A stretch of DNA of 64,000 nt from Coriobacteriales bacterium (GCA_031263025.1 JAISGO010000038.1:3038-67037); one strand, 5' to 3'. Numbered from the stretch's first letter, positions 32,157 through 54,993 are shown. Notes: generated from the sequence alone by a model not told the origin. Translations and numbers: made by a program.

Positions 32157-32159
32157 TTT

Positions 32160-33605: not shown

Positions 33606-33607
33606 AA

Positions 33608-33871: not shown

Positions 33872-33920
33872 GAAGCATATTTTATACTAGCATAGTATAA
33901 GCTAGTATAAAATATGCTTC
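33872..33920. repeat. perfect 20-bp inverted repeat spanning the 3' end of the left transposase gene
   Basis: GAAGCATATTTTATACTAGC (33872-33891) / GCTAGTATAAAATATGCTTC (33901-33920). Confidence 0.8.
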
Positions 33921-35053: not shown

Positions 35054-35173
35054 ATCAGTTCGTTCCTTTCAATGCATAGTATATGCTTTGCTATACTATG
35101 CGGCTATCCGTTTCTTCTATCAGTTTGTCGATAAGATTTTACCCCTGCGGCGCACACCTTTAGCGTTTTCCGC

Positions 35174-35208
35174 TTGACAATAGTATAGTATATGCTATAC
35201 TATACTAT
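35174..35208 (+). promoter_or_regulatory. parA(L) promoter TTGACA-16-TATACT overlapped by the palindrome ATAGTATAGTATA-TGC-TATACTATACTAT
   Basis: TTGACA 35174-35179; IR 35180-35192 / 35196-35208; related IR GCATAGTATA/TATACTATGC at 35074-35101. Confidence 0.6.
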
Positions 35209-35269
35209 GTTAGGCTACTATAGAATAGTCTTCAATGTACTATGCTATGCGTGAGAAAGAGAGGTATGT

Positions 35270-35818
35270 ATGAAAACCGTTTTGTTGGTGAACCAAAAGG
35301 GAGGAAGCGGCAAGACCACCATCGCTGATGAGTTGGTCTTCAACCTGGAGCGAAAAGGCCACAAGGTGACCTTCCAATCGCTTGACGCCCAAGGCGGTTC
35401 TATACACTATGGCAGTATGCCAGACGAGGACACCGAGTACCGCGTGATCGACTCGCCCGGCGCCATGCCGAAAGAGTTCAAGAACTGGTGTTCGGCGGCT
35501 GACATCATCATCATCCCGACCAAACCCGGGATTCCCGACCTTGCGCCTTTCAATCGTACCTACTCCGCCGCCCGGCAGGCCGCGCCGAAAGCGCACATCG
35601 GCATCGTCGTCAATTTCTACGACGCCAGGCGGGTGGTCGATCGCAACTTCGTGGAGGAGTTCGTTAAGCCGCTCATGTTAGACGTCTTTGCCTATATCCC
35701 TTCCACCACCCAGGTGGCCCGCGCCCAGGCTGAACAGATCTCCGTCTTTGACTATGACCGCAACTCGGAAGTGGCTAAGGCGTTTGACGCTCTCGCAGAC
35801 AAGGTGTTGTCTCTATAG
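35270..35818 (+). CDS. parA: ParA/Soj-type partition ATPase (left)
   Basis: deviant Walker A NQKGGSGKTT; ~45% identical to 60782..61333. Confidence 0.85.
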   Translation: MKTVLLVNQKGGSGKTTIADELVFNLERKGHKVTFQSLDAQGGSIHYGSMPDEDTEYRVIDSPGAMPKEFKNWCSAADIIIIPTKPGIPDLAPFNRTYSAARQAAPKAHIGIVVNFYDARRVVDRNFVEEFVKPLMLDVFAYIPSTTQVARAQAEQISVFDYDRNSEVAKAFDALADKVLSL

Positions 35819-35879
35819 CAAATACTATACTTTGCTATACTATGCTATTATATAATATGCTAAGAAAGGAATATGCTAA

Positions 35880-36224
35880 ATGAGTACAGACATTTTCGCA
35901 GAGTCGGCGCAAGCTGCTTTAGACGCACAAGACGAAGCGATGTACGCACCGGTCCCTATGGATAAGCCCGATACGAGCAAGCGCCCGAAACGTGCCTCCC
36001 ACAAGACCTCAAAGCCGACGACTTCCGCCAGGAAAGCGGACACCGCACCCGGCGAGTATCACGTCAAGCCTGCGAACGAGCGACGCGACTGTAAGGTGCT
36101 CGTTGGGTTCACTCCGTCCGAGCGCGAGCTACTCGAGCTCATTAAGACCGCCGAGGAACGTCCGCTCACACAGGTGATCGTCCGGGCGGTCAAGGAATAC
36201 TATAAGAACCACTACCAAGCCTAG
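35880..36224 (+). CDS. ribbon-helix-helix (CopG-like) protein
   Basis: C-terminal RRDCKVLVGFTPSERELLELIK..VIVRAVKEYYKNHY; ~50% identical to 60170..60385. Confidence 0.6.
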   Translation: MSTDIFAESAQAALDAQDEAMYAPVPMDKPDTSKRPKRASHKTSKPTTSARKADTAPGEYHVKPANERRDCKVLVGFTPSERELLELIKTAEERPLTQVIVRAVKEYYKNHYQA

Positions 36225-36240
36225 TTGAAGGAGGGGCAGC

Positions 36241-37644
36241 ATGAGACATAAGTCTCGCGAGAAGATAACCACCTATACCCTCATGAACAAGAACACCCCT
36301 GTTCTTGAGTTCGAGTATGCTCTTGCTTCCTCCACTATAACTGCTATCACCGCTCTGATTAACCCGGCGTATGCGCCTCTCGACGCATCACGCGCTTATA
36401 GCGATGGCGTGATAACCGAGGAATCCCTCAACGAGTGGTGGAGGAAGCGGGGCATCCCCTCTTCCCGTCAACATTTAGCAAACGCAGAAGACGTACTGCC
36501 GGCTTCGATGATGGAGCTACTTGAACACAACTATGGTCTATCGCTTTCCGATCAGTATTGGCTCAACGATTCGCGCTCGCCCAAGAGATGGGCCGAAGTG
36601 AACTTCTTCACCAATCCTTTTAGTGTCGACATCGGCCGTGCGCTTTTCGGCGGGGTGTCTTCGGAGGAGGCATTAAGCAACGACTTTTCCCTTATCTCAC
36701 CCGACGTTACCACCGGCGGGGTCTTACAAAAGAAGTGGATTATCGACGAAGGCCAACGCGTTCTCGTCAAAGGCGCCGAGGGCCAAGATCGCCAACAGGT
36801 CTTTAACGAGGTGATTGCCACCGAGCTGTATAGCAGATTGCTACCGCCAGATGAATACGTTACTTATAAGCTTATCAAAGAGGGCCATAAAGTCTATTGC
36901 GCATGCGGGGACATGATAGACATTGACGAAGAACTTGTAAGCGCAAAAGCGATTCGGCTGCATTTCGCCCGAGAGGAGAAAACGAGCGACTACGAACATC
37001 TCGTAAATTCTTACGAAAAGCTCGGCGTCAGCCATGCGGTTACAGCTACTGCCTTTTCCAAAATGCTTGTCTGCGACGCGCTTATGGCAAACGAGGATAG
37101 GCATACGGGTAACTTCGGCGTCATTAGGGACGTGAACAGTCTGGAGATCAAACGCATCGCCCCCCTTTGGGATACCGGTAACTCTCTCTTCTTCGACAAT
37201 GCCAGTCTTCTTTTGACACCTGGCTACGAATGGGAGTTCCGTTCAAAACCGTTTGCGGCGCGTATGAAGACCCAACTGGAATATGTGGACGATTATTCTT
37301 GGTATGACCCCAAATCCCTCAAAGGGTTCAGAGATTACGTGGCAGAGAAACTTTCGGAGATCGCACTTTATAAATCGTCTGGCCTAGACGTAGCGATTGC
37401 CGCTAGTGTCGATTGCCGCCGCGACTATATAGACAAGCAAGCTCGCGAATGGCAACTGAATCACAGCCGGAATCATATGTACAACGAAGCCCAAATCGCT
37501 AAACCCAGCGACGGGAAAAATCAAGTTCAACCGAACCTCGGTCCGCACCACATGGAGGACCTTGTTGCCCAAACGACAAGGGTTTCCGAAGCCCGCGAAG
37601 AGACGCGCGGAGGGCATGGCGGGCACGAAGAACCTAAACGCTAG
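36241..37644 (+). CDS. HipA-like Ser/Thr kinase toxin homolog with portable C-terminal tail
   Basis: HipA_C catalytic loop MANEDRHTGNFGVI; RBS GGAGGGG; tail NLGPHHMEDLVAQTTRVSEA. Confidence 0.7.
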   Translation: MRHKSREKITTYTLMNKNTPVLEFEYALASSTITAITALINPAYAPLDASRAYSDGVITEESLNEWWRKRGIPSSRQHLANAEDVLPASMMELLEHNYGLSLSDQYWLNDSRSPKRWAEVNFFTNPFSVDIGRALFGGVSSEEALSNDFSLISPDVTTGGVLQKKWIIDEGQRVLVKGAEGQDRQQVFNEVIATELYSRLLPPDEYVTYKLIKEGHKVYCACGDMIDIDEELVSAKAIRLHFAREEKTSDYEHLVNSYEKLGVSHAVTATAFSKMLVCDALMANEDRHTGNFGVIRDVNSLEIKRIAPLWDTGNSLFFDNASLLLTPGYEWEFRSKPFAARMKTQLEYVDDYSWYDPKSLKGFRDYVAEKLSEIALYKSSGLDVAIAASVDCRRDYIDKQAREWQLNHSRNHMYNEAQIAKPSDGKNQVQPNLGPHHMEDLVAQTTRVSEAREETRGGHGGHEEPKR

Positions 37645-37656
37645 AAGGAAACGGTG

Positions 37657-38460
37657 ATGACGACCCAAGACCTCATAAACGCGCTACTGGAGCAACGCAG
37701 GTTGCAGATAAACGGTAACGTCTACTGGCAGACCCAGATCGACCTGGCCTATAACTCGAATAGGATCGAGGGTTCCCAACTCACCCACGAACAGACCCGC
37801 TACATCTTCGAGACACAGACGATCTCCGGCGAAAACGTTCCCGTAGACGACGTGGTGGAGATGAAGAATCACTTCCGCATGTTCTATTACATGCTGGACC
37901 ATTTCAAGGAACCCGTGAGCGTCGAGACCATCCAAAGCTATCAGGCAATCCTCAAGGCCGGCACCTTTATGTCGGAGGACCCGAAGATGAACGTGGGGGG
38001 ATGGAAGCTCATCCCGAACGCGGTCGGCAACACCACTACGTCGCTACCGGGACAAGTCGATAACGACGTGAGGGCGCTCCTCGCCGCCTATAACAGGCAC
38101 GTCGAATCCGGCCACGAGGTGACGCTCACGCAGATCGCCGCCTTCCATGCACAGTTCGAGGCGATCCACCCCTTCCTCGACGGCAACGGGCGTACCGGTC
38201 GCATCATCATGTTCCACCAATGTCTCCAGGCGGGACTTATCCCGCCCATCGTCATGGACAAGACCAAGGCGGCCTACTACGCCGGCCTCGACCGCTGGCA
38301 GAACCATAACGACAGCAAACCGCTTCTGGACTATCTCGAAGAATGTCAGGCTGATTATCGCTCAGAATGCGAGTTCCTCCTTGAGGGCAAAGGCAAAGAT
38401 TTGAGTGGCCGCAAACCAGCCGATGTTGGCTACGAGGACATCTTCAAGGCGGACGAATAA
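37657..38460 (+). CDS. Fic-domain AMPylase, class II (N-terminal inhibitory motif)
   Basis: HPFLDGNGRTGR canonical Fic motif; SNRIEG matches (S/T)xxxE(G/N); starts 9-12 nt after the HipA-like stop. Confidence 0.85.
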   Translation: MTTQDLINALLEQRRLQINGNVYWQTQIDLAYNSNRIEGSQLTHEQTRYIFETQTISGENVPVDDVVEMKNHFRMFYYMLDHFKEPVSVETIQSYQAILKAGTFMSEDPKMNVGGWKLIPNAVGNTTTSLPGQVDNDVRALLAAYNRHVESGHEVTLTQIAAFHAQFEAIHPFLDGNGRTGRIIMFHQCLQAGLIPPIVMDKTKAAYYAGLDRWQNHNDSKPLLDYLEECQADYRSECEFLLEGKGKDLSGRKPADVGYEDIFKADE

Positions 38461-38477
38461 GCTTTAGAAACTCCTTG

Positions 38478-38497
38478 ACGCCGCCTGCGGGCGGCGT
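38478..38497 (+). terminator. rho-independent terminator candidate after fic
   Basis: ACGCCGCC-TGCG-GGCGGCGT followed by TTCCTTT. Confidence 0.6.
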
Positions 38498-38537
38498 TTC
38501 CTTTGGCGGCTTTAGCCGCCTCATGACGTTCTTTCCA

Positions 38538-38590
38538 TTACCGTCTCAAGGTTGTATAATCACATTTAACGGTAACGCTGAATAGCCCGT
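38538..38590 (+). other. oriT candidate (left module): 7-bp IR with 24-nt loop followed by GGTAACGC
   Basis: TTACCGT (38538-38544) / ACGGTAA (38569-38575) then CGCTGAATAGCCC; same layout as the right module; upstream of mobC. Confidence 0.4.
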
Positions 38591-38810
38591 TGGTGACAAA
38601 TTAACTCCGCTAATTTTCTCCAACGGCATTCACTCCGAGTCCTGCCAGACTCGGAGAGGCAAACCGCCCGAGGCTTCGCCACCCGGTCGGTTTCGCACAA
38701 AAGACGCAGACTTTGTGCGGGCGTGTCGGCCTGAGCCGCCAACGTCAGGGGGAGACCCCTGAGACCCCTGGTAATGGAGTCCGCAACGACCGAAAGGAGT
38801 TGCGGACATA

Positions 38811-39242
38811 ATGGCAAGACCTCACTTGAAAGATAACGGCAGAAGCCGGAGGGTTCACTTCGCTGTCACTCCAAAGGAGTATTCGAAGATAAAGGTTCAG
38901 GCTAAAAGTCTGAACCTTACCATCTCCGCCTATATTCGTCAGCGTGCCCTCTCAGATGTTACTGTCTTTTACGCCGGTGACGACGAAGGTCTCGCTAAGA
39001 TCCGTTCACAGCTACTCCGCGCTTTCGCAAGGAACAATCAAGCGGTAAAGGCAATCAACTACATTAGTAACGGTCTTCGCGAAAACTACTTTCCAGATTC
39101 GATTAGGGAAGACCTCAAGAATTTCGCAAACGAGAACGCTCCTTATTTCTCCGATACCGCGAATCAAATCAGCGATTGCCTTGCCGGTATTTCTGACTTC
39201 TATCATTCATTCAACAAGCTTCTTAAAGAAGGGAGAATCTAA
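38811..39242 (+). CDS. mobC: MobC-type relaxosome accessory protein (left)
   Basis: RRVHFAVTPKEYSKIK..ISAYIRQRAL RHH; TAATG overlap with next gene. Confidence 0.65.
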   Translation: MARPHLKDNGRSRRVHFAVTPKEYSKIKVQAKSLNLTISAYIRQRALSDVTVFYAGDDEGLAKIRSQLLRAFARNNQAVKAINYISNGLRENYFPDSIREDLKNFANENAPYFSDTANQISDCLAGISDFYHSFNKLLKEGRI

Positions 39243-39742
39243 TGCTAGACATTTGCGCTAAAAGGGATACGCCTTACGTGTATCCAAGCCTGCGTAGTCT
39301 CATTTCCGAGGACTGTCGTTTCAGTCTCTTCAAGGCGGATAGTCTGCTTAAAGGAGACATAATCGGCGAGTATCATGCTAAACTTTGCGGTCTATTCTGG
39401 GGGAGGCAACCTCGTAGCGGTCGAGCTACGCCTCTAGTCGCCTGTCTCTTCCTTATCTATACGGCAGACGAAAATAACAAAATCGTTGAACTTGAAAATA
39501 AGTTCATTACCGCTTCCGCTTGGGATAATAACCTTCATAAACCTCTTTTCGACTCGCCTTCGGCACCGCCACCAGACGACACTCTAGCTTATTCTGATTG
39601 GCTCGCTTCATTGCATATTGACGAATCCGCAGAACCGCAAAAATATCTTGCACTTAGGAGCATCCCCATCGGTAGTTATATCACTTGCACATTCGCCCTC
39701 AACCGTAACGGGCATGGGGTACTTCGCGACTGGATCGTCTGA
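39242..39742 (+). CDS. hypothetical protein (left module only)
   Basis: translationally coupled on both sides (TAATG, TGATG); no counterpart between mobC and relaxase on the right. Confidence 0.5.
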   Translation: MLDICAKRDTPYVYPSLRSLISEDCRFSLFKADSLLKGDIIGEYHAKLCGLFWGRQPRSGRATPLVACLFLIYTADENNKIVELENKFITASAWDNNLHKPLFDSPSAPPPDDTLAYSDWLASLHIDESAEPQKYLALRSIPIGSYITCTFALNRNGHGVLRDWIV

Positions 39743-41244
39743 TGCCTGAACTCCGTCTTCAAGCCGCACACCGTAAATGCTTTGGCGTTGCTGAGTATCT
39801 ACGTTACGGGAAAGGCGAAAGCTACTTTACGAACAAACGTGAAGGAAAGACTCGTGTTCGCGCCTTCGGTGGTTTTAACCTTGCCGGCGACATCTTCGAC
39901 TGGGATCAGCAGATGGACGAAACTCGAGAGATGGCCGGAAACGACCTCCCGTATCGTGGGCGCCGGGCACGGACTTACAATCACTTCGTCCTCTCGCCCG
40001 ATCCTGCGGACGGGCTTTCCTATGAAGATGTCCTAGCCCTCGCGGAAGAATACGCCGCGCACTTCTTCGGCGACGGTGAAGTCCGTGGTACCATTGGCCA
40101 GTTTGAGAGCGCCATTATCATACATGACGACGGAACGAACAATGTGGTACATGCGCATGTGATTGTGAACAATACCGATCTCGATACCCTCAAGCGTATT
40201 CATCGTGACCGCAGAGACATCAAGGAAATGTATGACTTCGCGGAAGAGCTTGCGAAATCGCATGGGTATCATTCTTTTACGGAGACACATGAGTCTGTTC
40301 CTGCTAAGGTCGGCGAGTTCGAGATGGGAACAAGGATATTCTCCAAGCCTAGACCGATTAGTTTTGCCGAGCGTCACGCGATGGAAGCGCATGAAGGCTA
40401 CTCCTGGAAGGAGGATCTCGCCCAGCGTGTCCGGGTCGCCTATGAATGCGCGAGCGACATGAAGGGTTTCGTCCTTGCCTGCAAGGACCTCGGGGTGACG
40501 GTGGAGAAGTCGAAGGCGAAAAACTACGCCGGCGACTTCCTCTACCGTATGGCCGACGAGCCCACGCATTGCTGTCGTGCCAACAAGCTCGGCACAGACT
40601 ACCGCTCCGGCAACCTCACCCGCCACTTCGCCCGAAACGAGAAGCGTGGCCTCTGGAAGCCACGCGATGGCCAGGCGGCCGAAGTCGCGAAGGTGTTCTG
40701 GCCGAAGGGTATCCGCCGGGTCGGCAACATCGAGAAGGGAAGCGGTATCAGCCTCCACGAGGCCTTCCAGGTGATTGACTTCATGCGCGAAGTGCATGTG
40801 AGCGACTACACGCAGATAAAGCGGATTAGACCCTCTTCCGAGGACATGCGCGAGCGTCTGGAACGTTTCGCCTACGTCGCCGAACACGCCCACCTCAAGG
40901 TCAGGGACACCACGAAACCGGCCGCGAAGCCGCAGGCAAAGCAAAGCGCACCTATCGTCGAGGACGGCAAGATCGTCGGCACGGCGGACGCGAAGACCAA
41001 GGCGCTGTTCGCCACCGTGAACAAACAAGCGGCCGCAAGAAAGAAACAGATTGCAGCTATGACACCATCGGAGCGTGCTGCCGCAGCAGTCGCAGCACAA
41101 CGAAACGCACAACGAAGCCGGCCACAGCAAGCACAGCGCCGCGCCGCGCCTCAGCCACAACGTCCCGCGCCGCGACCCCAAGCGAGACCGCAACCGCAGC
41201 CACAGCGCAGCCGTCCGCCTACCCGCCACTCTCCGCAACGCTAA
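39742..41244 (+). CDS. MOBQ/MobA-VirD2-type relaxase (left)
   Basis: IHDDGTNNVVHAHVIVNNTD (HxDx..HxH), N-terminal Tyr region AEYLRYGKG; Pro/Gln/Arg-rich tail. Confidence 0.8.
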   Translation: MPELRLQAAHRKCFGVAEYLRYGKGESYFTNKREGKTRVRAFGGFNLAGDIFDWDQQMDETREMAGNDLPYRGRRARTYNHFVLSPDPADGLSYEDVLALAEEYAAHFFGDGEVRGTIGQFESAIIIHDDGTNNVVHAHVIVNNTDLDTLKRIHRDRRDIKEMYDFAEELAKSHGYHSFTETHESVPAKVGEFEMGTRIFSKPRPISFAERHAMEAHEGYSWKEDLAQRVRVAYECASDMKGFVLACKDLGVTVEKSKAKNYAGDFLYRMADEPTHCCRANKLGTDYRSGNLTRHFARNEKRGLWKPRDGQAAEVAKVFWPKGIRRVGNIEKGSGISLHEAFQVIDFMREVHVSDYTQIKRIRPSSEDMRERLERFAYVAEHAHLKVRDTTKPAAKPQAKQSAPIVEDGKIVGTADAKTKALFATVNKQAAARKKQIAAMTPSERAAAAVAAQRNAQRSRPQQAQRRAAPQPQRPAPRPQARPQPQPQRSRPPTRHSPQR

Positions 41245-41270
41245 TCGCAAAAGACAGAAAGGAACCTACC

Positions 41271-42014
41271 ATGCAAGTCAAGATCTACTACCAATCCGGT
41301 CGGGTCGCCGTCTTCGATACGGCGAACTTCACCATGCCCGAGCCTTTCGGTCCCAAGGACAAGAACATCCTCACCAACTTCGAGCTGAACCTCGACAGCT
41401 GCCAGAACGAGGATTCGCTCGGCCTTTACATCGACGTCTATTACTACGACATCGACCCTGGTGTCGGTAAACGACCGGAAACCGCCACAGCCCTCCGGGC
41501 CGGGAGGAAGGAATCGAAACTCACCTTTCCGAGCATCCGATCCGGCTACCGCTTGCTTTTAACTGACAAGGAGGGACTTGCGGACGTCGGTTATATCGAA
41601 GTCGATGGAAAGATAGTAATGTGGCGCCAAGGCGACGACCTCATCAACGCCAACAAGTTCGAGATCCAGCAGTTCATCTGCTACAACTCCACAACGGCGG
41701 AATCTTATAACACTAAGGTCTTAGACCTCTTCCGCTACGTCAGGAACGCCGAGGGCGGACGCGAAGAACACGGACCGACCGATAAGCAGATCGCCGAACG
41801 TCTCGGTTACACCGAGGCGGCGCTTTACAAGGCCATGCGCGACGAGGCCGCGAACGTCGATACTATCGAAGACGAGGACATGGCAGGAGTAGGGGAGGAA
41901 GATGAGAGCGAAAGCGATACTCCCGAGCCACCAAGTCCGCAAGAACAGCCCCAGGAAGCCCCCTCAGAGGCCATTGAGGGCCTTGCAGACGAATACCTAG
42001 CCAATCTCTCGTAG
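41271..42014 (+). CDS. conserved hypothetical protein with HTH-like segment and acidic tail (paralog of 56026..56742)
   Basis: MQVKIYYQSGRVAVFDT vs MKVNVYFENGRVNIFDT; TDKQIAERLGYTEAALYKAMRDE; follows the relaxase in both modules. Confidence 0.6.
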   Translation: MQVKIYYQSGRVAVFDTANFTMPEPFGPKDKNILTNFELNLDSCQNEDSLGLYIDVYYYDIDPGVGKRPETATALRAGRKESKLTFPSIRSGYRLLLTDKEGLADVGYIEVDGKIVMWRQGDDLINANKFEIQQFICYNSTTAESYNTKVLDLFRYVRNAEGGREEHGPTDKQIAERLGYTEAALYKAMRDEAANVDTIEDEDMAGVGEEDESESDTPEPPSPQEQPQEAPSEAIEGLADEYLANLS

Positions 42015-42053
42015 AACCCGTCAGGACGCCCCGAGAAGCCCTCTGGGCGTCCT

Positions 42054-42339
42054 CCTGCCCTCTTCTCTCGTTACCCTTCCCCAATTTTCCAGTCAACTTT
42101 TACCTCTCCGCTTTTCCCGCTACCTCCTCCACACCGCATTTCCTAACCCGTCACCTGCACCACCTCCTCCTTCGGACTTCCCCTCTGCCTACTCCTCCAT
42201 CTAGCCACAGGACCCGCCTACGGTCAAGGGCCGCTCGGGGCCATCACGGTTACCGCTGGACGCGCGCATACGCCCGCGCCTCAGCTCCCTAAGACGTGAT
42301 CGCCCCTGCGCTTGAACCCTTGACCGTAGGCGGGTCCTG
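42054..42339 (+). other. non-coding module: ~150-nt polypyrimidine tract plus 132-nt long-stem hairpin (left)
   Basis: perfect 23-bp stem CAGGACCCGCCTACGGTCAAGGG (42208-42230) / its complement (42317-42339); conserved loop GGTTACCGCTGGACG...CCTCAGCTCCCTAAG. Confidence 0.7.
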
Positions 42340-42397
42340 CGGCGTCATGCCGGCGTAGACAAAGGGACGAAGTCCCAAGATCAGAAAGGAGCCTCAC

Positions 42398-42817
42398 ATG
42401 CAGGCGACACAGGAAAAGCGGATGGTGAATCTGGAGGACAAGCGGACAATCGAGCAGGCAAAAGTCATTGCCATCAAATACCTGGAGAAAGGTAACTTCA
42501 AGATCGTCGCGCAGGATTACACCTCGACGGCGGGCGTCGCTGATTACGTCTTCTACGAGAAAGACGATTTGGTATTCGCAAGCGTCGGCCTCGGGGACAA
42601 CGAGGGGAACTTCCCGGAGCATGATTGCTCTAGCGAACGCAAGGCGGCCGAGAGGATCGCCCTCGACTATTTCACCTCCCACCCCCACATCAACTCCTGC
42701 CGCGTCCGCTTCGATAACATCGACGTCTGCTTCGCAGGCCCCTCCGGCCAGCAGGCGATGGTGAAGCACCACCGTGACGCCTACTCCACAGACGACGACT
42801 ACTCGCCCATCGGGTAG
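42398..42817 (+). CDS. YraN/UPF0102-like (endonuclease fold) protein, catalytic residues apparently lost
   Basis: layout AKVIAIKYLEKGNFKIVAQ..GVADYVF..LVFASVG..RFDNIDV parallels YraN; paralog of 55250..55660. Confidence 0.55.
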   Translation: MQATQEKRMVNLEDKRTIEQAKVIAIKYLEKGNFKIVAQDYTSTAGVADYVFYEKDDLVFASVGLGDNEGNFPEHDCSSERKAAERIALDYFTSHPHINSCRVRFDNIDVCFAGPSGQQAMVKHHRDAYSTDDDYSPIG

Positions 42818-42882
42818 CGCCGCCGGTGAGGGGGCGTTTCGCCCCCTCACCTTTCCTGCGCGTTTGTCGACGCTCGCTTCCA

Positions 42883-43145
42883 GGTAGAATAGGGGAGCGA
42901 GTTAGCGTTTCGCCGGGTGCGCCTAATCTTCCCGTGGGGAGAGGAGGTGATGCCCTTATGGATGTCTTACAGCTGATAACCGCAGCGATCCGGCTTTTAC
43001 TGGTCGTGGCGAAACTGCCGAAAGCGTTCAGGCGTTTACGCCAGGAAAGGAAGAAGCGTCCATAAAGGACGCTTCCTAATCTTAATCGGCGCACCCGGCG
43101 TCAGTCACAACCACGGGGCGCTAACTCGCTTGATTATACCACGGC
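42883..43145. repeat. 263-bp direct repeat, copy 1 (copy 2 = 53466-53728)
   Basis: read directly, ~93% identical, same orientation in both copies. Confidence 0.9.
42958..43065 (+). CDS. 35-aa hydrophobic/basic peptide (type-I-toxin-like candidate), copy 1
   Basis: MDVLQLITAAIRLLLVVAKLPKAFRRLRQERKKRP; SD GGAGAGGAGGTG; identical peptide in copy 2 despite 6 nt changes. Confidence 0.5.
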   Translation: MDVLQLITAAIRLLLVVAKLPKAFRRLRQERKKRP

Positions 43146-43157
43146 TTGAATAAGGAA

Positions 43158-43379
43158 AAGGCCGGGCACACTACGGCCCGGTCTTATTCGGTTGATGAAA
43201 CGTTTCAATCCACGTGCCTACTGAGGATAGACACGACGAGGCTATTATACGTCGTCTTCTCTGCCTACACCGCGCTGATTATTCCTATTCTGCTTTTGAA
43301 GGGTTCGGCCTGCTTGCGCGGCGCTCGCCCTTGTCGCTCCGGCGACTGTATCATCCATCTTTCGAGGACCGAGGTGAGG
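43158..43379. repeat. ~220-bp direct repeat, copy 1 (copy 2 = 43858-44077): tail-coding segment plus terminator
   Basis: read directly; contains hairpin CCGGGC..GCCCGG followed on the minus strand by a U-rich run. Confidence 0.85.
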
Positions 43380-43409: not shown

Positions 43410-43832
43410 CTACATCCTCGTTAAGACGTTATTTGACACATAGAGGTTGCGGCGTCTGAACTCCGGAGGACTGTCGTCTCGCATGACTTTCACGAGTTCT
43501 GGCCTCAGCTCCCCTATAGGCCTTCCAGCGAGCAAAGGCCGATCAAGGAAATACTGCGGCTTCTCGGTCCAAGTGGGTACGCGCAGGTTAAAATCATGTG
43601 CGAGCTTTTCGGCCTCTGCGGCATATTCCGCCATGTCGTCGCATGAAACGTCATAGCCATCTTGCGGGATAGGTTCATACTCGATGAACGACTGTCGCTG
43701 TCTCGGTTTGGCCGCGTAAAAAGCATCGAGGAAATTGCCGTTTGCAGTTGCCGGATCCACGCCTAATGCGCGTTGTGCCATCACTTCACGGAAGTTCAGC
43801 GGTCGCCTATGTAGCAAATCCCTCATTCGCAT
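43410..43832 (-). CDS. hypothetical 140-aa protein ending at a TAG that is in frame with a 54-codon shared tail
   Basis: ORF ..NNVLTRM-TAG-RVEQKSQKGYPHLGPRKMDDTVAGATRASAAQAGR..REDDV* (43409-43245). Confidence 0.5.
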   Translation of the reverse strand: MRMRDLLHRRPLNFREVMAQRALGVDPATANGNFLDAFYAAKPRQRQSFIEYEPIPQDGYDVSCDDMAEYAAEAEKLAHDFNLRVPTWTEKPQYFLDRPLLAGRPIGELRPELVKVMRDDSPPEFRRRNLYVSNNVLTRM

Positions 43833-43942
43833 ATTTTACCACGGCATCAAGAAAGACAAGGCCGGGCACTACGGCCCGGTCTTATTCGGTTGATGAAACG
43901 TTTCAATCCACGTGTCTACTGAGGATAGACACGACGAGGCTA

Positions 43943-44788
43943 TTATACATCGTCTTCTCTGCCTACACCGCGCTGAGGGTTCCTGTTTTGTCCTTGGAAG
44001 TCCCTTCCTGCTTGCGCGGCGCTCGCCCTTGTCGCTCCGGCGACTATATCATCCATCTTCCGAGGACCGAGGTGAGGTACAGCCGGCTTAGATTTATCCT
44101 CGTTAATTTTCTGTCCCGTTCTCTCTTTCGAGAAGTCAGTACCGACAAGGCAATCCTCATAAAGGAATAGCTTCAAGGGGGTCGGTTCGTTCGTTTCGTA
44201 GAAGTCCGTGAGCGCTTTCCTGAACCGGCTTAACTTGTTCTCCGCGATAGCGAGGATGCCGAACCCCTGAGAAATGAGGTAATGATTCGCTGCGAGTTGC
44301 GCCGTCCGTTTATTGCCGTCGAAGAAAAGCTGCTTACGACAGACCCAGCACATTATGTCGAGGCCCTTCTCGGGGCCTTCGGGTCCACGTAACATGCTCT
44401 CGAACCCTTCCTTATCCATCTGTTCGTTTGGAATGTCGGGTCGCCATGTCGTGCCGCCGATCCTCACGTCCACCGTCCTGACTTTCCCAGGTTCCCTCGT
44501 AACCCCGGCCTCGCCGATAAGCTGGTTGAACTCTTTCAGCATCCGGAAATCAAGTGGCACCTCGATTTCCTGCAAGCAATACTCCCAAGCGTGTTTGAGG
44601 TTGTTGATGGCGATGGTCTCGTTTACGGAGAGACCTGACACGGTTCTCCCCTCGAAGATCTCGGCGGTGTCCGGAAAAGTTACGTTGATTCCCTCTAGCC
44701 TGGCCTCTTTCCATATACTATCGACCACAAGACGCTTGGCGTACCAAACGTTCTCCTCTTGCGTCATATCGAACTTGTTCTCGAACAT
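43943..44788 (-). CDS. Fic/Doc-family protein with non-canonical motif (Gln in place of catalytic His) and portable C-terminal tail
   Basis: CRKQLFFDGNKRTAQLAANHYL aligns to HxFx(D/N)(A/G)NKR; N-terminal ARLEGINVTF. Confidence 0.7.
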   Translation of the reverse strand: MFENKFDMTQEENVWYAKRLVVDSIWKEARLEGINVTFPDTAEIFEGRTVSGLSVNETIAINNLKHAWEYCLQEIEVPLDFRMLKEFNQLIGEAGVTREPGKVRTVDVRIGGTTWRPDIPNEQMDKEGFESMLRGPEGPEKGLDIMCWVCRKQLFFDGNKRTAQLAANHYLISQGFGILAIAENKLSRFRKALTDFYETNEPTPLKLFLYEDCLVGTDFSKERTGQKINEDKSKPAVPHLGPRKMDDIVAGATRASAAQAGRDFQGQNRNPQRGVGREDDV

Positions 44789-48391: not shown

Positions 48392-51358
48392 TCACCGTCT
48401 CCCCGTATTGCCCTTTGCCGGCATCTTGCGCTTTTTGCGTGATACGCGGATAAGCGCGGCCCCCGCGCAGAGCGCTGCTAAGACGGCGGCGATGAGCAGG
48501 GTGGCGAGCCGCTCTCCGGTCTGCGGCAGGTTGCCGTAAGTGCCTTCCGCCGAGCCGTCCTCGCCGAAGCTCACCTGGCGGTTCGACTGGGTGAGGTTCA
48601 GGTTGAAGGTGTCCATGAAGGCGGTCGGCGAAGTCGCGGTCGCCTGTTTGGTGAGCGCGGGATCGCCGTTCTTGGAGACCTCGGCGTGTACGGTCTGTAT
48701 CGGCGTATTGACGTTACCGGCGGCGTCGTGTGTCCAGAAACCTTTCGTGCCATACATCTCGACGTAGTTGGTGTAATTCTCGGTGTAAAGGCCACCGTCG
48801 ACCTGTACGCCGTTGGTGTGGTCGCCGTCCACGTAGGGAGCCTTCTCGTAAGGAGAGTGGTTCTGCGGCTGTTCGCTGTAGCTCTTATAGGTGCCATAGT
48901 CGTGCGACGGGTTCACGCCGTAAGGGGTGACCCCACTAGAGGTGTCCTTGAACTCACCCGGGATCATGCCGGCCGGGTTCGCGATTGTCCCCGGGTTCGT
49001 ACCTGTGAGTGTCTGATAGTGGCCGATGTAGAAACCCTCCGCGACTGCGCCGAACACGTACTTGATGGAGGTGATGTACTCCCCGGGTTGTAGGTTGAGG
49101 TCGCTCGCGTAAAGCTCGTGCGGCACCAGGGTGGAAAGCCCGTCCTCCCATACCCGGTAGCCCGCTGGGTAGGAGATCTGGCTGGTCTTCGCCGCGGGTG
49201 TGGCGATGTCGGGGTTCGCCGGATTGTCGGCGAGCGGATCGACCTTGTAGTCCGGTTTCACGTCGGGGTTTCCGGCGGTGAGATTCGTCGCATAAAGCAC
49301 CGCGAAGGTATTGTCGAAGTCAAGGCCGGGTTCCACGGTGTAGGTACGCAGCATTTTCACGCGCAGACCCCATTCGGCGCCGAAGAGGTCGTTCGTGAGC
49401 GTGAACTCGTCGACCGCCGCGTTCGTCTCGTTCCTGCCGGCGAAGAAGGTCTGGAGGTACTGGCTTCCGACCTGATTCGGCTCCCCGTAGGCGCGACCGT
49501 CGAAGGCGACGTTCGAGTTGTCTACCGTGTCCGAAAAACAGGCCACGGCATCTGATACCGCCTTATCCTGGTAAGCCGCGATCACGGTATCGGCGGTCGG
49601 TGCGGTGACCGCGTTCGCGGTCTGGGAGTCGACGATGTAGTAAGTGGCGTCCTTTCTGCCGCACTCATGCGGCAGCAGGTACGCCGGGTTCGACTTCACC
49701 TCCACGACTTTATAGATGCCAAAGGGCAGGTCGGTGAAGGTGCAGGTGCCGTCCGCACCGGTGGTGAGGTCGTCAGTCAGGGGAGTAAGCCCTGCGCTGC
49801 CGTCGTTTGCGACCACGTTTCCGGCCGCGTTATAGGCAAGCGCGGCGGAAACCCGCTCCCAGCTCGCGTTCTCCTTCATCGCGGACGAGATCCTCGTAGT
49901 CACCCGGCCCTCTGCGACTTGCGCATGGACGTCGGTGTAGAGCTGGAACTCGGTATCGGGCACCGCCGCCTTGGTGTCGGCGTCGGTCTTTTGCACCTTG
50001 ATGGACTTCAGGGTGTAATCCTGGTAAGGCGCCGCCACGGTGTCCTTCACGGTCGAACTTGAGTTCGCGGTCTTGTCGACCACGTAATAATGCGCCGACG
50101 GGAAGCCGGCTTGCTCCTGGGACTGGTAGGAGGTGTTCGGCGTCACCTCCAAGGCCATGTAATAGCCGAAGGGCAAGTCCTCAAAAGTGCAAGTTCCGTC
50201 CGGGCCGGTTTCGAGGTCGTCGGTAAGCGGCTTCAAGTTACCTTTGCTACCGATGAGCGCGACGTTTCCGTTCTTGTCGTAGCCGTAATATGCGGAAACC
50301 CTTACCCAGTTGCCGCCGGTAGAGCTATCGACTTCCCCATCTTTAACGGTAACGCCGCTCTTGACGTAGAGCTGGAAACGGGTATCGGGCACCGCAACTC
50401 CCGTGTCGGCGTCGGACTTCTCGACCCGCACCTGCTTTAGGGTGTAGTCGGCGAAGGGAACCTCCACGGTGTCCTTGTAGGCAGAAGCCGAGTTCGCGGT
50501 CTTATCGACCACGAAGAAGTGTCCGCCGGGGTTTCCGGCTTGCGCCTGCGACTGGTAGCCTTTGGTAGGCGTCACCTCGATGGCCTCGTAAAGCCCGAAG
50601 GGCAGATCCTTGAAGGTGGCCGAGCCGTCCGGCAGCGTGGTGGTGTCGTCGGATAAGGGGGTAAGACCCGCCGAGCCGTCGTTTGTAACGACGTTTCCGG
50701 CCGTGTCATAGGCGTATGCCTTCGAGACCTTGACCCAACCCGCGCTATCCGCCTGGGCGGTGGCCAGCTCGGTGGTAACGGAGCCGTCTGCTACCTTAGC
50801 CGCGGGGTAGACCATGAGCTTAAACTCGGTGCCGGCGATCGCTACCTTGGTGTCGGCGTCTGACTTCTCGACCCGCACCTGCTTTAGGGTGTAGTCGGCG
50901 TATTGTTTGGTGATTATGTTCGTGGTCTTATCCACGGTAAAGTACTGCGCTGCCTCCTGGCCTTCCTGGGCACGGGACTGATAGGCTACGTTCGGGGTCG
51001 TCTCCACGATCTTGTAAGCGCCGACGGCGACCGGCGAGAAGAGGCATTTACCGGTAGACAAGGTGGCGTGGGTAGTGGTAAGCTTCCAGTCGCCTGCCAC
51101 AGTCGCTTCCAGGTCGGTTTCTGTCGGGTTCTCGATCTGACCGGTGTATTTGTAAAGCGTGTAGGTAGTGTTCGCGACCATGACGCTAGTGTCGATGTCG
51201 GACTTCTGCACCACTAGCTCGTGCGGCGGTTCGTCATAGGTGATGGTGACGTTATCGACATCATGGTTTCCTGGCGTTACCTGCATCACCGTCGGGGTGT
51301 TATCTTTCGGGAGCTGATAGCCGACGGGTGGGTTCGTTTCCTGGATTACCAAGGTACC
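48392..51358 (-). CDS. LPXTG-anchored adhesin with >=4 tandem SpaA/Cna-B-like domains, 5'-truncated (no signal peptide)
   Basis: LPQTG (48529-48515) + hydrophobic helix + RKKRK tail; ~130-aa repeats ending DLPFG.Y..(I/V)EV.P..(G/S)YQSQ; homology stops at 51358. Confidence 0.7.
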   Translation of the reverse strand, partial: GTLVIQETNPPVGYQLPKDNTPTVMQVTPGNHDVDNVTITYDEPPHELVVQKSDIDTSVMVANTTYTLYKYTGQIENPTETDLEATVAGDWKLTTTHATLSTGKCLFSPVAVGAYKIVETTPNVAYQSRAQEGQEAAQYFTVDKTTNIITKQYADYTLKQVRVEKSDADTKVAIAGTEFKLMVYPAAKVADGSVTTELATAQADSAGWVKVSKAYAYDTAGNVVTNDGSAGLTPLSDDTTTLPDGSATFKDLPFGLYEAIEVTPTKGYQSQAQAGNPGGHFFVVDKTANSASAYKDTVEVPFADYTLKQVRVEKSDADTGVAVPDTRFQLYVKSGVTVKDGEVDSSTGGNWVRVSAYYGYDKNGNVALIGSKGNLKPLTDDLETGPDGTCTFEDLPFGYYMALEVTPNTSYQSQEQAGFPSAHYYVVDKTANSSSTVKDTVAAPYQDYTLKSIKVQKTDADTKAAVPDTEFQLYTDVHAQVAEGRVTTRISSAMKENASWERVSAALAYNAAGNVVANDGSAGLTPLTDDLTTGADGTCTFTDLPFGIYKVVEVKSNPAYLLPHECGRKDATYYIVDSQTANAVTAPTADTVIAAYQDKAVSDAVACFSDTVDNSNVAFDGRAYGEPNQVGSQYLQTFFAGRNETNAAVDEFTLTNDLFGAEWGLRVKMLRTYTVEPGLDFDNTFAVLYATNLTAGNPDVKPDYKVDPLADNPANPDIATPAAKTSQISYPAGYRVWEDGLSTLVPHELYASDLNLQPGEYITSIKYVFGAVAEGFYIGHYQTLTGTNPGTIANPAGMIPGEFKDTSSGVTPYGVNPSHDYGTYKSYSEQPQNHSPYEKAPYVDGDHTNGVQVDGGLYTENYTNYVEMYGTKGFWTHDAAGNVNTPIQTVHAEVSKNGDPALTKQATATSPTAFMDTFNLNLTQSNRQVSFGEDGSAEGTYGNLPQTGERLATLLIAAVLAALCAGAALIRVSRKKRKMPAKGNTGRR

Positions 51359-52533: not shown

Positions 52534-52534
52534 C

Positions 52535-53334: not shown

Positions 53335-53540
53335 AAGATGAGCGCCAGAAATCAATAGTGAGTTGAGTTTGGCAGGCTCAAAATTAAAAGGTGATATAAA
53401 TATAGCACTAATTCAGAAAAAGTCAAACGAGAAGGATTAAGTCCTAGAGCCGCCGGGGACTACCAAGTAGAATAGATAAACGAGTTAGCGTTTCGCCGGG
53501 TGCGCCTAATCTTCCCGTGGGGAGAGGAGGTGATGCCCTC

Positions 53541-53648
53541 ATGGATGTCTTACAGCTGATAACCGCAGCGATCCGGCTTTTGCTGGTCGTGGCGAAGCTG
53601 CCGAAAGCGTTCAGACGTTTGCGCCAGGAAAGGAAGAAGCGCCCGTAA
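53541..53648 (+). CDS. 35-aa hydrophobic/basic peptide, copy 2
   Basis: identical peptide to 42958..43065; same SD; lies in the 263-bp repeat 53466-53728. Confidence 0.5.
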   Translation: MDVLQLITAAIRLLLVVAKLPKAFRRLRQERKKRP

Positions 53649-53727
53649 AGGACGCTTCCTAATCTTAATCGGCGCACCCGACACCAGTTACAACCACGGG
53701 GCGCTAACTCATTTGATTATACCACGG

Positions 53728-54993
53728 CTATTTGGTTTTGGCCGTTTTAGTGGCACTAGTGGAGCTTACGCCAGCGCGGACGACAGAGACCTTGACTGTG
53801 TACTTCTTCTTGTCCCTAAGCTTCAAAGTTACCTTGTGTGCAGAGCTTGATTTGAGCGATTTGGTCTTCCAAGTTGTCCCTTTGGTCTTATAGGAGACCT
53901 TATAGGAGGAGGCGTTGGCTTTACTTGACGAGAAGTTCTTCCAGGAGACAATCAGCTTGTTGTTACCTGATTTGACTTTGAGAGCGGAGACCTTATGCGG
54001 GTAAATGGTGTATGTACCAAGCTCCAGCATCATAGCCGCGTTATAAGCGTCGGATCCCGTACAAGAGACCGAGACGGTGTACTTTCCGGCCTTGGTCGGA
54101 CGTTTCGTTGACTGGTTGTAGTAGACCTTTATCTTGCCAGCTGCGACCGATGATTTGACGTCAGAGGATTGAGTTTTCTTGTTGTACGTGTCAGAGGTCT
54201 CGAAGGTGAAATCTGAAGCGCTGAGGTCGGCTTTAGTGATACCGGCAGGTTCTTCGGGAACGACTGGGACGATTGGGGCAACTGGAGTGTTCGGAGAAGG
54301 CTCAGGCTCTGGTTGTGGATTAGGATTAGGGACGGGATTAGCCGGTGTAGGCTTAGGATTAGGGGTCGGCTGAGGGTTAGCGACCCATTCACTTGTAATG
54401 TAACCGCCTTTGTCGCCGCAAGTATTAAGGCAGTTCCAACCAAGTGGATCGGGGAACATGAAAAGCTCATCGGGGTTAGCTTCAGCTTGCAGGGCTAGGT
54501 CTTCGGGTATCACAACTTCGCCGGCAGTTTGGTAAACCTGGACAATTTCGGGGATGATGTCGCCGTTCTGATCCGGAAGACCAGAGATTCTAGCGTCTAC
54601 ATTTGAGTGTTCATTAAGCTCCGATAGCAAACCCATCGAGGGGTCATTTATGTCTTCTTCAGTTGACCAACAAAGAACATCAGTAGACGTGTCTTTAAGG
54701 ATTTCGTCCATGTGTTTGTTGATGTATTTTACGGTAACTACCGACATACGCTTCCAGGGATAAGGTGGGTCGAATTGATAAGGGTCATTTGCAGCCGAAA
54801 AGTATGTTCCCCGCAGAGGAGTCGATGTTGACGCTTCCGAGTAGTGCAGGGTATAGACATAATGACCAGATTCGCTTTCGTTTGCAAAAGCAGAATGGGC
54901 GGTTTTACCAAGAAGAGCGAGAGAAAGGACAAGGGAAAGGGCGATGCAAAAGGCGGCTTTAATCGCCGTTGTACGAGCGGTGTTCTTGTTCAT
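53728..54993 (-). CDS. secreted surface protein (paralog of 44815..46497)
   Basis: signal peptide ..LLGKTAHSAFA; shared ESGH(W/Y)VYTLH, DPSMG, QNG(E/D)IIPEI; RBS AAGGAGG. Confidence 0.7.
   Translation of the reverse strand: MNKNTARTTAIKAAFCIALSLVLSLALLGKTAHSAFANESESGHYVYTLHYSEASTSTPLRGTYFSAANDPYQFDPPYPWKRMSVVTVKYINKHMDEILKDTSTDVLCWSTEEDINDPSMGLLSELNEHSNVDARISGLPDQNGDIIPEIVQVYQTAGEVVIPEDLALQAEANPDELFMFPDPLGWNCLNTCGDKGGYITSEWVANPQPTPNPKPTPANPVPNPNPQPEPEPSPNTPVAPIVPVVPEEPAGITKADLSASDFTFETSDTYNKKTQSSDVKSSVAAGKIKVYYNQSTKRPTKAGKYTVSVSCTGSDAYNAAMMLELGTYTIYPHKVSALKVKSGNNKLIVSWKNFSSSKANASSYKVSYKTKGTTWKTKSLKSSSAHKVTLKLRDKKKYTVKVSVVRAGVSSTSATKTAKTK

What the first reader, a model, noticed from the sequence alone, without database searches (positions are those of the whole stretch)
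42883..43145. Duplicated 35-codon hydrophobic/basic mini-ORF inside a 5'-3' pairing structure: type-I-toxin-like module (second copy 53466-53728)
Two 263-bp direct repeats (~93% identical) each carry, after a strong SD (GGAGAGGAGGTG), the ORF MDVLQLITAAIRLLLVVAKLPKAFRRLRQERKKRP (42958-43065 and 53541-53648).

Six nucleotide differences fall inside the ORF and all are synonymous (tta/ttg, aaa/aag, agg/aga, tta/ttg, cgt/cgc, cca/ccg).

The unit starts with CGCCGGGTGCGCC (42911-42923) and ends with its perfect complement GGCGCACCCGGCG (43088-43100). Copy 2 keeps 10 bp of this pairing. The stop codon sits in a hairpin, GAAGCGTCC-ATAAA-GGACGCTTC.

Three features recall hok/AapA-type type I toxin mRNAs: a short hydrophobic helix, a basic tail, and long-distance 5'-3' pairing.

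Caveat: the six changes are also third positions of an antisense ORF (42690..43094 / 53444..53677). The substitution pattern alone therefore does not say which strand is under selection.

Both copies are in the same orientation, unlike the mirrored modules around them.
Basis: partly seen in the sequence, partly recalled or inferred. Interest (0 to 1): 0.7.

Follow-up and report, generated by a model that had tools for sequence, protein, structure and literature searches.

The report
Duplicated small-peptide cassette with antisense promoter
A 270-base cassette present twice in a mobile-element-rich region of an uncultured Coriobacteriales genome encodes a conserved 35-residue membrane-type peptide on one strand and probably a structured antisense RNA on the other; it looks like a toxin/RNA-antitoxin addiction module from a phylum where none is known, but this rests on sequence analysis of only two copies.

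Summary
Two copies, 42877-43146 and 53460-53729, are 93% identical, while the flanking genes are only 37-57% identical at protein level. Each copy has a 10-nt perfect Shine-Dalgarno (SD) sequence and the same 35-codon ORF. All six ORF differences are synonymous third-position transitions (P about 0.002).

New findings:
- There is a second, outer 12-bp terminal helix (42896-42907 with 43119-43130).
- The minus strand carries a perfect extended -10 promoter, TGGTATAAT (43141-43133), at the right edge, pointing inward. The motif is 8-fold over-represented in the window, and its three other matches all lie upstream of genes.
- The five changes in the three helices all keep pairing on the minus-strand RNA (68/68 cells; four G.U, one compensatory). 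Four of them give C.A mismatches on the plus strand.

No homologue was found in Rfam, Pfam, NCBIfam, 5.8 billion proteins, or the plasmid, phage, viral, genome and metagenome collections. Transcription, toxicity and antitoxin action remain untested. Confidence is about 0.45.

The parts
42877..43146 (+). Cassette copy 1 (whole conserved unit)
   Evidence: Gap-free 270-nt repeat, 93% identical to copy 2. Homology stops 8 nt upstream of the plus-strand -10 box and 5 nt upstream of the minus-strand extended -10 box.
53460..53729 (+). Cassette copy 2. Every feature listed for copy 1 recurs here at +10583.
   Evidence: An independent Logan assembly contig (L004, SRR14710920) breaks inside it, as expected for a true genomic repeat.
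42885..42890 (+). Candidate -10 box TAGAAT for the peptide mRNA; predicted start about 42897
   Evidence: Read from the sequence and conserved in both copies. No conserved -35, and not called by the two-hexamer scan. Inferred.
42896..42907 (.). Outer inverted repeat, left arm AGCGAGTTAGCG (helix H1)
   Evidence: Perfect complement of 43119-43130. Copy 2 has one compensatory G-C to A-U change (42897/43129).
42911..42923 (.). Inner inverted repeat, left arm CGCCGGGTGCGCC (helix H2)
   Evidence: Perfect complement of 43088-43100.
42942..42951 (+). Shine-Dalgarno sequence AGGAGGTGAT
   Evidence: Read from the sequence; identical in both copies. 6 nt from its end to the ATG.
42958..43065 (+). 35-codon ORF plus stop: amphipathic hydrophobic helix with a +7 basic tail
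   Evidence: 0 of 72 first/second-position changes, 6 of 36 third-position changes. AlphaFold gives a single helix, residues 3-32, pLDDT 77. JGI annotates the identical 35-aa product (P0001).
43051..43077 (-). Central hairpin (H3) around the stop codon: 9 bp on the plus strand, 11 bp on the minus strand, where UUCCUUUCC follows. Candidate terminator of a short antisense RNA, possibly bidirectional.
   Evidence: The 43059 change is U.G on the minus strand and C.A on the plus strand. Not called by the terminator scan.
43088..43100 (.). Inner inverted repeat, right arm GGCGCACCCGGCG (H2)
   Evidence: Changes at 43098 and 43100 give G.U on the minus strand and C.A on the plus strand.
43119..43130 (.). 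Outer inverted repeat, right arm CGCTAACTCGCT (H1)
43133..43141 (-). Perfect extended -10 promoter box TGGTATAAT for the antisense RNA; predicted start about 43126
   Evidence: 5 matches in 64 kb against 0.64 expected. The three matches outside the cassette each lie 37-86 nt upstream of a gene start in the correct orientation. Identical in both copies.
42922..42930 (+). CCTAATCTT, repeated directly at 43075-43083. It would let the antisense RNA (AAGAUUAGG) also pair with the 5' UTR.
   Evidence: Read from the sequence. Weak: about 0.14 such 9-mers are expected by chance in 270 nt, and the duplex energy is not better than shuffles.

Best explanation
The 270-bp cassette is a self-contained pair of convergent transcription units that works like a type I toxin-antitoxin module.

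Plus strand: a weak promoter (TAGAAT) gives an mRNA with a 60-nt leader, a very strong ribosome-binding site, and a 35-codon ORF. The product is a single amphipathic helix with a +7 basic tail, the build of pore-forming or membrane-perturbing type I toxins.

Minus strand: a strong extended -10 promoter at the opposite edge gives an antisense RNA starting near 43126. This RNA is perfectly complementary to the 3' UTR, the stop codon and at least the last codons of the ORF if it ends at the 11-bp hairpin (about 80 nt long). If it reads through it is complementary to the whole mRNA (about 230 nt), and its own ends then close into a 12 + 13 bp panhandle.

Proposed action: pairing of the two RNAs blocks translation and/or triggers duplex cleavage, so the peptide is made only when antisense supply fails. 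This would stabilise the mobile-element island that carries the cassette.

Shown here: the repeat, the ORF and its synonymous-only divergence, the promoter motif, and the helices with their strand-specific conservation.

Inferred, not shown: that either strand is transcribed, where the RNAs end, that the peptide is toxic, and that the antisense RNA neutralises it.
For: 1. Coding constraint. 0 of 72 changes fall at codon positions 1-2 and 6 of 36 at position 3; all six are synonymous (P = 2.4e-3). The 5' UTR (1/60) and the 3' part (6/81) are also far less diverged than the wobble sites (17%), so the whole unit is constrained.

2. The unit is discrete and much better conserved than its surroundings: 93% nt identity, against 37-38% aa for the UPF0102, relaxase and X proteins, about 50% for the MBG proteins and 57% for the transposases. 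Its flanks are unrelated. It sits between gene ends with terminators on both sides.

3. TGGTATAAT lies on the minus strand at the right edge in both copies. The motif is enriched 5 against 0.64 expected, and its other three matches look like genuine promoters.

4. All five substitutions in H1, H2 and H3 keep pairing on the minus strand (100% of 68 cells). Four are C.A mismatches on the plus strand (94.1%). The minus-strand RNA loses 1.7 kcal/mol between copies; the plus-strand RNA loses 12.3. RNAalifold on the minus strand has no broken pair among 73.

5. Peptide properties. 12 of 15 hydrophobic residues in the best window, which passes the rule for short type I toxins in PMC2887945. Kyte-Doolittle mean hydropathy is 2.07 over 18 residues. 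The polar residues D2, Q5, T8, R12 and K19 lie on one helix face. The tail has net charge +7. It is predicted as a single helix.

6. Context. The region is plasmid-like or mobilisable-element DNA, with ParA, HipA/Fic, AbiEii and NikA/MobA genes. This is where addiction modules are usually found.

7. The layout matches par of pAD1: convergent promoters, a roughly 230-nt mRNA for a 33-aa toxin, and a shared central terminator hairpin (PMC7472228). Ibs/Sib and Ldr/Rdl were likewise first found as intergenic repeats (PMC5367252, PMC2887945).
Against: - There is no expression or toxicity data.
- Only two sequences exist, so every statistic is small. The G.U asymmetry is 4 of 4 (P about 0.06), and only 3 of 3 if the minus-strand RNA starts at 43126 and so excludes 43128/43129.
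- No homologue exists anywhere, so nothing can be tested by deeper comparison.
- Codon usage does not separate the sense frame from the wobble-sharing antisense frame.
- SD sequestration is unremarkable.
- Complementarity between the antisense RNA and the 5' UTR is no better than shuffles.
- The plus-strand promoter is only a -10-like hexamer without a -35, and the generic scans call neither promoter nor the central hairpin.
- The hydrophobic stretch is interrupted by R12 and K19.
- A small membrane or nucleic-acid-binding protein need not be a toxin.
Confidence: 0.45

Rival explanations
1. It is a genuine small-protein gene whose product is not a toxin. The product could be a membrane-associated or RNA/DNA-binding accessory peptide of the mobile elements or of the adjacent surface-protein operons. 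The minus-strand features would then be an ordinary cis-antisense regulator, or incidental.
For: The coding constraint, strong SD and helix prediction support a translated peptide but say nothing about toxicity. Both copies lie at the 3' end of a minus-strand operon that encodes a paralogous MBG/FN3 surface protein. The very basic tail (RRLRQERKKRP) would also suit nucleic-acid binding.
Against: The cassette is conserved as a discrete unit that excludes the neighbouring genes (93% nt against about 50% aa). This argues against a function tied to them. The stand-alone convergent-promoter layout, the duplication and the mobile-element context are typical of addiction modules.
Confidence: 0.25
2. 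The functional product is a structured non-coding RNA of about 230 nt from the minus strand, for example a regulator of the mobile elements. The plus-strand ORF is fortuitous.
For: Strong extended -10 box. All helix substitutions are compatible with the minus-strand fold only. Minus-strand z-score is -4.8. In the minus-strand consensus fold, four of the six ORF wobble changes are pair-preserving and two are in loops.
Against: An RNA fold does not predict strict 3-nt periodicity. All six changes are spaced by multiples of 3 and fall within an ORF that has a perfect 10-nt SD and an ATG (P about 1e-3). There is no Rfam match on either strand. No terminator lies at the far end of the unit on the minus strand.
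Confidence: 0.15
3. It is a DNA-level element: a miniature transposable element with terminal inverted repeats, or a recombination or boundary site of the integrated mobilisable elements. RNA and peptide would play no role.
For: The ends are imperfect inverted repeats, GGTAGAAT..AGCGAGTTAGCG..CGCCGGGTGCGCC on the left against the reverse complement of the right end. The unit occurs in two unrelated flanking contexts inside an IS30-transposase-rich island.
Against: No target-site duplication is present at either copy, and homology extends 5-8 nt beyond the inverted repeats. No further or partial copies occur in 64 kb. No similarity was found to sequences next to the two IS30-like genes. No integrase or tRNA lies in the 10.3 kb between the copies that would make them attL/attR. 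A protein-binding site does not explain synonymous-only divergence.
Confidence: 0.1
4. The antisense ORF (43094-42690, 134 aa; 53677-53444, 77 aa) is the real gene.
For: It is open across the repeat, and the six wobble changes are synonymous in it too.
Against: It has only a GTG start, buried in the H2 helix, with no SD. The C-termini of the two copies differ completely beyond the repeat, and in copy 1 it runs antisense through a terminator and the neighbouring gene. Four of its 12 differences are non-synonymous, all outside the span of the sense ORF. Its composition is Arg/Ser/Gly/Pro-rich, it has no family match, and codon usage gives it no support.
Confidence: 0.03

Closest known systems
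par (Fst / RNA I - RNA II) of Enterococcus faecalis pAD1 and the Fst/Ldr superfamily
   Same: Convergent promoters bound a cassette of about 250 bp. The toxin is about 33-35 aa, with a hydrophobic helix and a charged tail. A central hairpin at the end of the ORF is shared by both transcripts. The module is carried on mobile DNA (PMC7472228).
   Different: No sequence similarity (no Pfam or NCBIfam hit). No PXXXG motif and no conserved Trp. The tail is basic rather than acidic. The DRa/DRb equivalent is a single 9-nt repeat without statistical support. The 12 + 13 bp terminal inverted repeats are not a par feature. The host is Actinomycetota.
Ibs/Sib (QUAD repeats) and Ldr/Rdl (LDR repeats) of E. 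coli
   Same: They were recognised as conserved intergenic repeats, each carrying a tiny hydrophobic ORF on one strand and a structured antisense RNA on the other. Sib fully overlaps ibs, as the read-through model proposes here (own knowledge; PMC2887945 and PMC5367252 for the repeat-based discovery).
   Different: Ibs is 18-19 aa. No Rfam hit to Sib, Rdl or other antitoxin RNAs. The copies here are 10.6 kb apart, not tandem.
hok/sok and aapA1/isoA1
   Same: Long-distance 5'-3' pairing can be drawn in the peptide mRNA (z = -5.8).
   Different: That pairing carries four mismatches in copy 2 on the mRNA strand and is kept only on the antisense strand. The antisense promoter is at the 3' end, not the 5' end. 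No Hok/Gef homology. SD occlusion is ordinary.
bsrG/SR4 and txpA/RatA of Bacillus subtilis
   Same: A convergent antisense RNA overlaps the 3' end of the toxin mRNA, and the module lies on prophage-like or mobile DNA (own knowledge).
   Different: No homology, different peptide lengths, nothing tested here.
TisB
   Same: A short amphipathic transmembrane-type helix with charged or polar residues aligned on one face (PMC11449926 title and abstract only).
   Different: TisB is SOS-regulated and controlled by the trans-acting IstR-1 RNA. No sequence similarity.

Membership tests
Type I toxin-antitoxin systems (generic definition) | ORF under 70 aa with a transmembrane-like stretch (at least 10 of 15 residues from I, V, L, F, C, M, A) and a polar or charged C-terminus (PMC2887945) | tested here: met
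   12 of 15 in LITAAIRLLLVVAKL; Kyte-Doolittle 2.07 over 18 residues; C-terminal 14 aa net +7; single helix 3-32.
Type I toxin-antitoxin systems (generic definition) | An antisense or partly complementary small RNA gene with its own promoter | tested here: inconclusive
   Perfect extended -10 box on the minus strand, conserved in both copies and enriched in the window. Helices are conserved on the minus strand. No transcript data.
Type I toxin-antitoxin systems (generic definition) | The peptide is toxic when over-produced, and the RNA prevents its synthesis | not testable with these tools
   Requires expression experiments.
Type I toxin-antitoxin systems (generic definition) | Toxin mRNA folded so that the ribosome-binding site is occluded | tested here: inconclusive
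   SD P(unpaired) is 0.24-0.43 depending on transcript end and copy, against 0.53 +/- 0.23 in 32 control genes.
Fst/Ldr, Hok/Gef, TisB, Ibs, ShoB, TxpA and other named toxin families | Sequence match to the family profile | tested here: not met
   No Pfam or NCBIfam hit at E up to 10. phmmer against 1.84 billion representatives finds only itself.
Known antitoxin or other RNA families (Rfam 15) | Covariance-model match | tested here: not met
   No hit at gathering thresholds in the window. Only noise (E >= 0.7) in 42700-43300.
par-type architecture | Direct repeats that give a second region of RNA I / RNA II complementarity over the translation start | tested here: inconclusive
   One 9-nt repeat (42922-42930 / 43075-43083) lies upstream of the SD. 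Duplex energy is within the shuffle distribution.
MITE / small non-autonomous transposon | Terminal inverted repeats at the very ends, flanked by a target-site duplication, in many copies | tested here: not met
   Inverted repeats are present, but homology extends beyond them. No duplication at either copy, and only two copies in 64 kb.
attL/attR of an integrated element | Direct repeats flanking an element with an integrase, usually at a tRNA or gene 3' end | tested here: not met
   No tRNA or tmRNA. The 10.3 kb between the copies encodes Fic, surface proteins, pilin and sortase, but no recombinase.

The most novel reading that the evidence does not exclude
[quoted passage not shown] It would be an orphan 35-aa toxin with a fully overlapping antisense RNA whose own ends close into a panhandle. 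The whole module would be packaged as a 270-bp unit bounded exactly by its two promoters, and would have spread between sites independently of its neighbours. A 2025 paper states that type I systems have so far been found only in Proteobacteria, Firmicutes and Tenericutes (PMC12390103 abstract).
Probability: 0.35. Interest if true: 0.65.

Novelty: new variant of a known kind. Interest (0 to 1): 0.5.

Why it matters
[quoted passage not shown] They are hard to find because both the toxins and the RNAs are short and diverge quickly. A validated module in Coriobacteriales would add a phylum. It would also add an unrelated toxin sequence and an unusual antitoxin design: a panhandle RNA encoded between terminal inverted repeats that include the promoters. 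In addition, it would be a concrete case of a TA cassette moving as a minimal unit. The cassette is only 270 bp, so the proposal can be tested directly by synthesis and expression.

Tried and rejected
- **Known RNA families.** Rfam at gathering thresholds on the whole window, and at permissive thresholds on 42700-43300, gave nothing. No tRNA or tmRNA.
- **Homologue searches, all empty except self.** These were:
  - blastn against plasmids and phages.
  - tblastn of the peptide against plasmids and phages (one Borrelia hit at E = 4, which is noise).
  - The 5.8-billion-protein search (only the identical JGI entry).
  - The 1.84-billion-representative phmmer search.
  - Viral contigs with four patterns. 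The three hits of the stem pattern were chance matches in GC-rich coding DNA.
  - Genome contigs twice and metagenome contigs twice.
- **Neighbour-based route.** The UPF0102-like and MBG proteins have no relatives other than themselves. The only contig recovered is the same organism, 99.99% identical. The relaxase has no PLSDB match.
- **Codon-usage likelihood** did not discriminate between the two frames.
- **SD-occlusion test:** unremarkable.
- **par-like trans pairing** of the antisense RNA with the 5' UTR is no better than shuffles.
- **Inverted repeats shared with the IS30-like element ends:** none found.
- **Rejected readings:** the antisense ORF as a gene, attL/attR and MITE. Reasons are given under the rival explanations.

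Full report
**1. The observation**

The two stretches 42877-43146 and 53460-53729 align without a gap over 270 nt at 93% identity. There are 19 differences, of which 17 are transitions. Each copy carries AGGAGGTGAT followed 6 nt later by ATG and the same 35-codon ORF, MDVLQLITAAIRLLLVVAKLPKAFRRLRQERKKRP.

An independent Logan assembly of the same organism breaks its contig inside copy 2. This is what a real genomic repeat does to an assembler.

**2. What surrounds it**

The window comes from an uncultured Coriobacteriales bacterium. This follows from the names attached to the identical neighbouring proteins.

The region 33.9-62.7 kb holds two related plasmid-like or mobilisable modules facing each other. 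Each has an IS30-like DDE transposase, ParA, a toxin-antitoxin pair (HipA/Fic or AbiEii), NikA, a MobA relaxase, an unknown protein and a UPF0102 nuclease-like protein. The modules are only 37-57% identical at protein level.

Between them lie a Fic protein, two paralogous MBG/FN3 surface proteins (about 50% identical), a SpaA-type pilin and a sortase.

Both cassette copies are on the plus strand. Each sits between converging gene ends:
- Copy 1 follows the terminator of the UPF0102-like gene and precedes a terminator hairpin.
- Copy 2 follows the sortase terminator and abuts the stop codon of the 421-aa MBG gene.

The sequences outside the 270 nt are unrelated. The cassette is therefore a discrete unit, far better conserved than anything around it. 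It was copied, or converted, more recently than its neighbours diverged.

**3. Constraint pattern**

| Region | Differences |
|---|---|
| Left-edge 21 nt | 6 |
| 5' UTR, 60 nt | 1 |
| ORF codon positions 1-2, 72 sites | 0 |
| ORF codon position 3, 36 sites | 6 |
| 3' part, 81 nt | 6 |

All six ORF changes are synonymous. For six random transitions, P = 2.4e-3 that all are synonymous and about 1e-3 that all hit one codon position.

If wobble sites (17% diverged) approximate neutrality, then the UTRs as well as the peptide sequence are under purifying selection.

The same six changes are also silent in the one antisense frame that shares wobble positions. That frame is a poor gene candidate for several reasons:
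- It has no ATG or SD. Its only start is a GTG inside a helix.
- Its C-termini differ completely between the copies.
- It runs antisense through a terminator and the neighbouring gene in copy 1.
- It takes four non-synonymous changes, all outside the span of the sense ORF.

Codon usage cannot separate the two frames, and I record that as a weakness.

**4. New structural findings**

(a) There is a second, outer inverted repeat, AGCGAGTTAGCG / CGCTAACTCGCT (42896-42907 / 43119-43130). With the adjacent -10-like boxes, the two ends of the unit are imperfect inverted repeats of each other.

(b) The right edge carries TGGTATAAT on the minus strand (43141-43133). This is a perfect extended -10 box pointing into the cassette. 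The motif occurs 5 times in the window against 0.64 expected. The three occurrences outside the cassette each lie 37-86 nt upstream of a gene start in the right orientation. It is therefore evidently a working promoter type in this genome. The left edge has TAGAAT (42885-42890) on the plus strand. Homology between the copies begins 8 nt upstream of one box and ends 5 nt upstream of the other, so the conserved unit is bounded by two convergent promoters.

(c) I scored the three helices on both strands.
- On the plus strand, copy 2 has four C.A mismatches (94.1% of cells paired).
- On the minus strand, the same four changes are G.U pairs, and with one compensatory G-C to A-U change all 68 cells pair.
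- The central hairpin is 11 bp on the minus strand, followed by UUCCUUUCC, against 9 bp on the plus strand.
- Between copies the minus-strand RNA loses 1.7 kcal/mol and the plus-strand RNA 12.3.

The asymmetry is 4 of 4 (about P = 0.06). It is only 3 of 3 if the antisense RNA starts at 43126 and so does not contain 43128/43129. It is suggestive, not proof.

**5. Tests of specific type I features**

- The peptide passes the published rule for short type I toxins: 12 of 15 hydrophobic residues and a polar C-terminus (PMC2887945).
- Its polar residues lie on one helix face, and it is predicted as one helix, residues 3-32, pLDDT 77.
- SD occlusion is ordinary.
- A 9-nt direct repeat (CCTAATCTT at 42922-30 and 43075-83) would let the antisense RNA also touch the 5' UTR, as DRa/DRb do in par (PMC7472228). 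However, the predicted duplex is no better than shuffles.
- No Rfam, Pfam or NCBIfam family matches.

**6. Search for relatives**

Every route failed:
- DNA and peptide searches against plasmids and phages.
- Four viral scans.
- Two scans each of species-representative genomes and of metagenomes.
- The 5.8-billion and 1.84-billion protein libraries.
- The neighbours' own homologues.

The lineage is simply unsampled. Covariation and frame conservation therefore cannot be tested beyond the two copies.

**7. Interpretation**

The best-supported reading is a convergent sense/antisense cassette that works like a type I toxin-antitoxin module. A weakly promoted mRNA encodes a small amphipathic membrane-type peptide. 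A strongly promoted, structured antisense RNA overlaps at least its 3' end and possibly all of it. The layout is closest to par/Fst (convergent promoters, central shared hairpin) and to Ibs/Sib (an intergenic repeat with a fully overlapping antisense RNA). There is no sequence membership in any known family. I put this reading at 0.45.

The main rivals are:
- a non-toxic small protein gene (0.25);
- a minus-strand non-coding RNA with a fortuitous ORF (0.15);
- a DNA-level repeat (0.10);
- the antisense ORF as the real gene (0.03).

**8. Novelty and score**

Type I systems are reported so far only from Proteobacteria, Firmicutes and Tenericutes, with a recent cyanobacterial candidate (PMC12390103). 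A validated actinobacterial family with a panhandle antisense RNA, packaged between promoter-containing inverted repeats, would be a new variant of a known kind.

The evidence is entirely in silico and rests on two copies in one metagenome-assembled genome. I score interest at 0.5.

Noticed in passing
33902-42817 (+ module) and 62672-55250 (- module): Two related mobilisable or plasmid-like modules face each other as mirror images. Each has an IS30-like DDE transposase, ParA, a TA pair, NikA, a MobA relaxase, an unknown protein and a UPF0102-like protein. They are 37-57% identical at protein level and enclose pilin, sortase and surface-protein cargo. The relaxase has no tblastn match in PLSDB at 1e-10.
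   Followed up: partly
43169-43379 and 43867-44077: A 211-nt direct repeat (91%) brackets the 140-aa ORF 43410-43832, which has no family match. The second copy is the 3' end of the Fic gene 43943-44788. The 140-aa gene therefore looks like an insertion that duplicated the Fic 3' end and terminator, next to cassette copy 1.
   Followed up: no
42181-42230 / 42317-42366: A 50-nt inverted repeat, 82% complementary with an 86-nt spacer, lies between the unknown gene 41271-42014 and the UPF0102-like gene. It could be an oriT-like or regulatory structure.
   Followed up: no
3654-3725 / 3762-3833: A 72-nt direct repeat, 99% identical and 108 nt apart, lies at the junction of two plus-strand genes in the chromosomal part of the window.
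   Followed up: no
13459-13467 (+), 55079-55087 (-), 61370-61378 (-): TGNTATAAT is 8-fold over-represented in the window. Every match outside the cassette lies 37-86 nt upstream of a gene start (the 525-aa CAP-domain protein, the 421-aa MBG protein and ParA). Extended -10 promoters therefore seem to be the norm in this organism.
   Followed up: partly
48392-51460 (-), with internal repeats 49937-50900: A 1022-aa SpaA-type LPXTG pilin has internal repeats of about 430-447 nt. A sortase gene lies at 52472-53305. This pilus locus is carried between the two cassette copies.
   Followed up: no
32001-34000 and 62001-64000: GC content drops to about 0.40-0.42, against 0.55-0.63 elsewhere. This marks the outer borders of the island. 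An Mrr-type restriction endonuclease gene lies at 32160-33605.
   Followed up: no
42950-42976 (+): An 8-codon ORF (MPLWMSYS) starts 2 nt after the SD core and overlaps the start of the 35-codon ORF in another frame. Copy 2 changes it to MPSWMSYS. It may be irrelevant, or it may be a coupling or decoy ORF.
   Followed up: no
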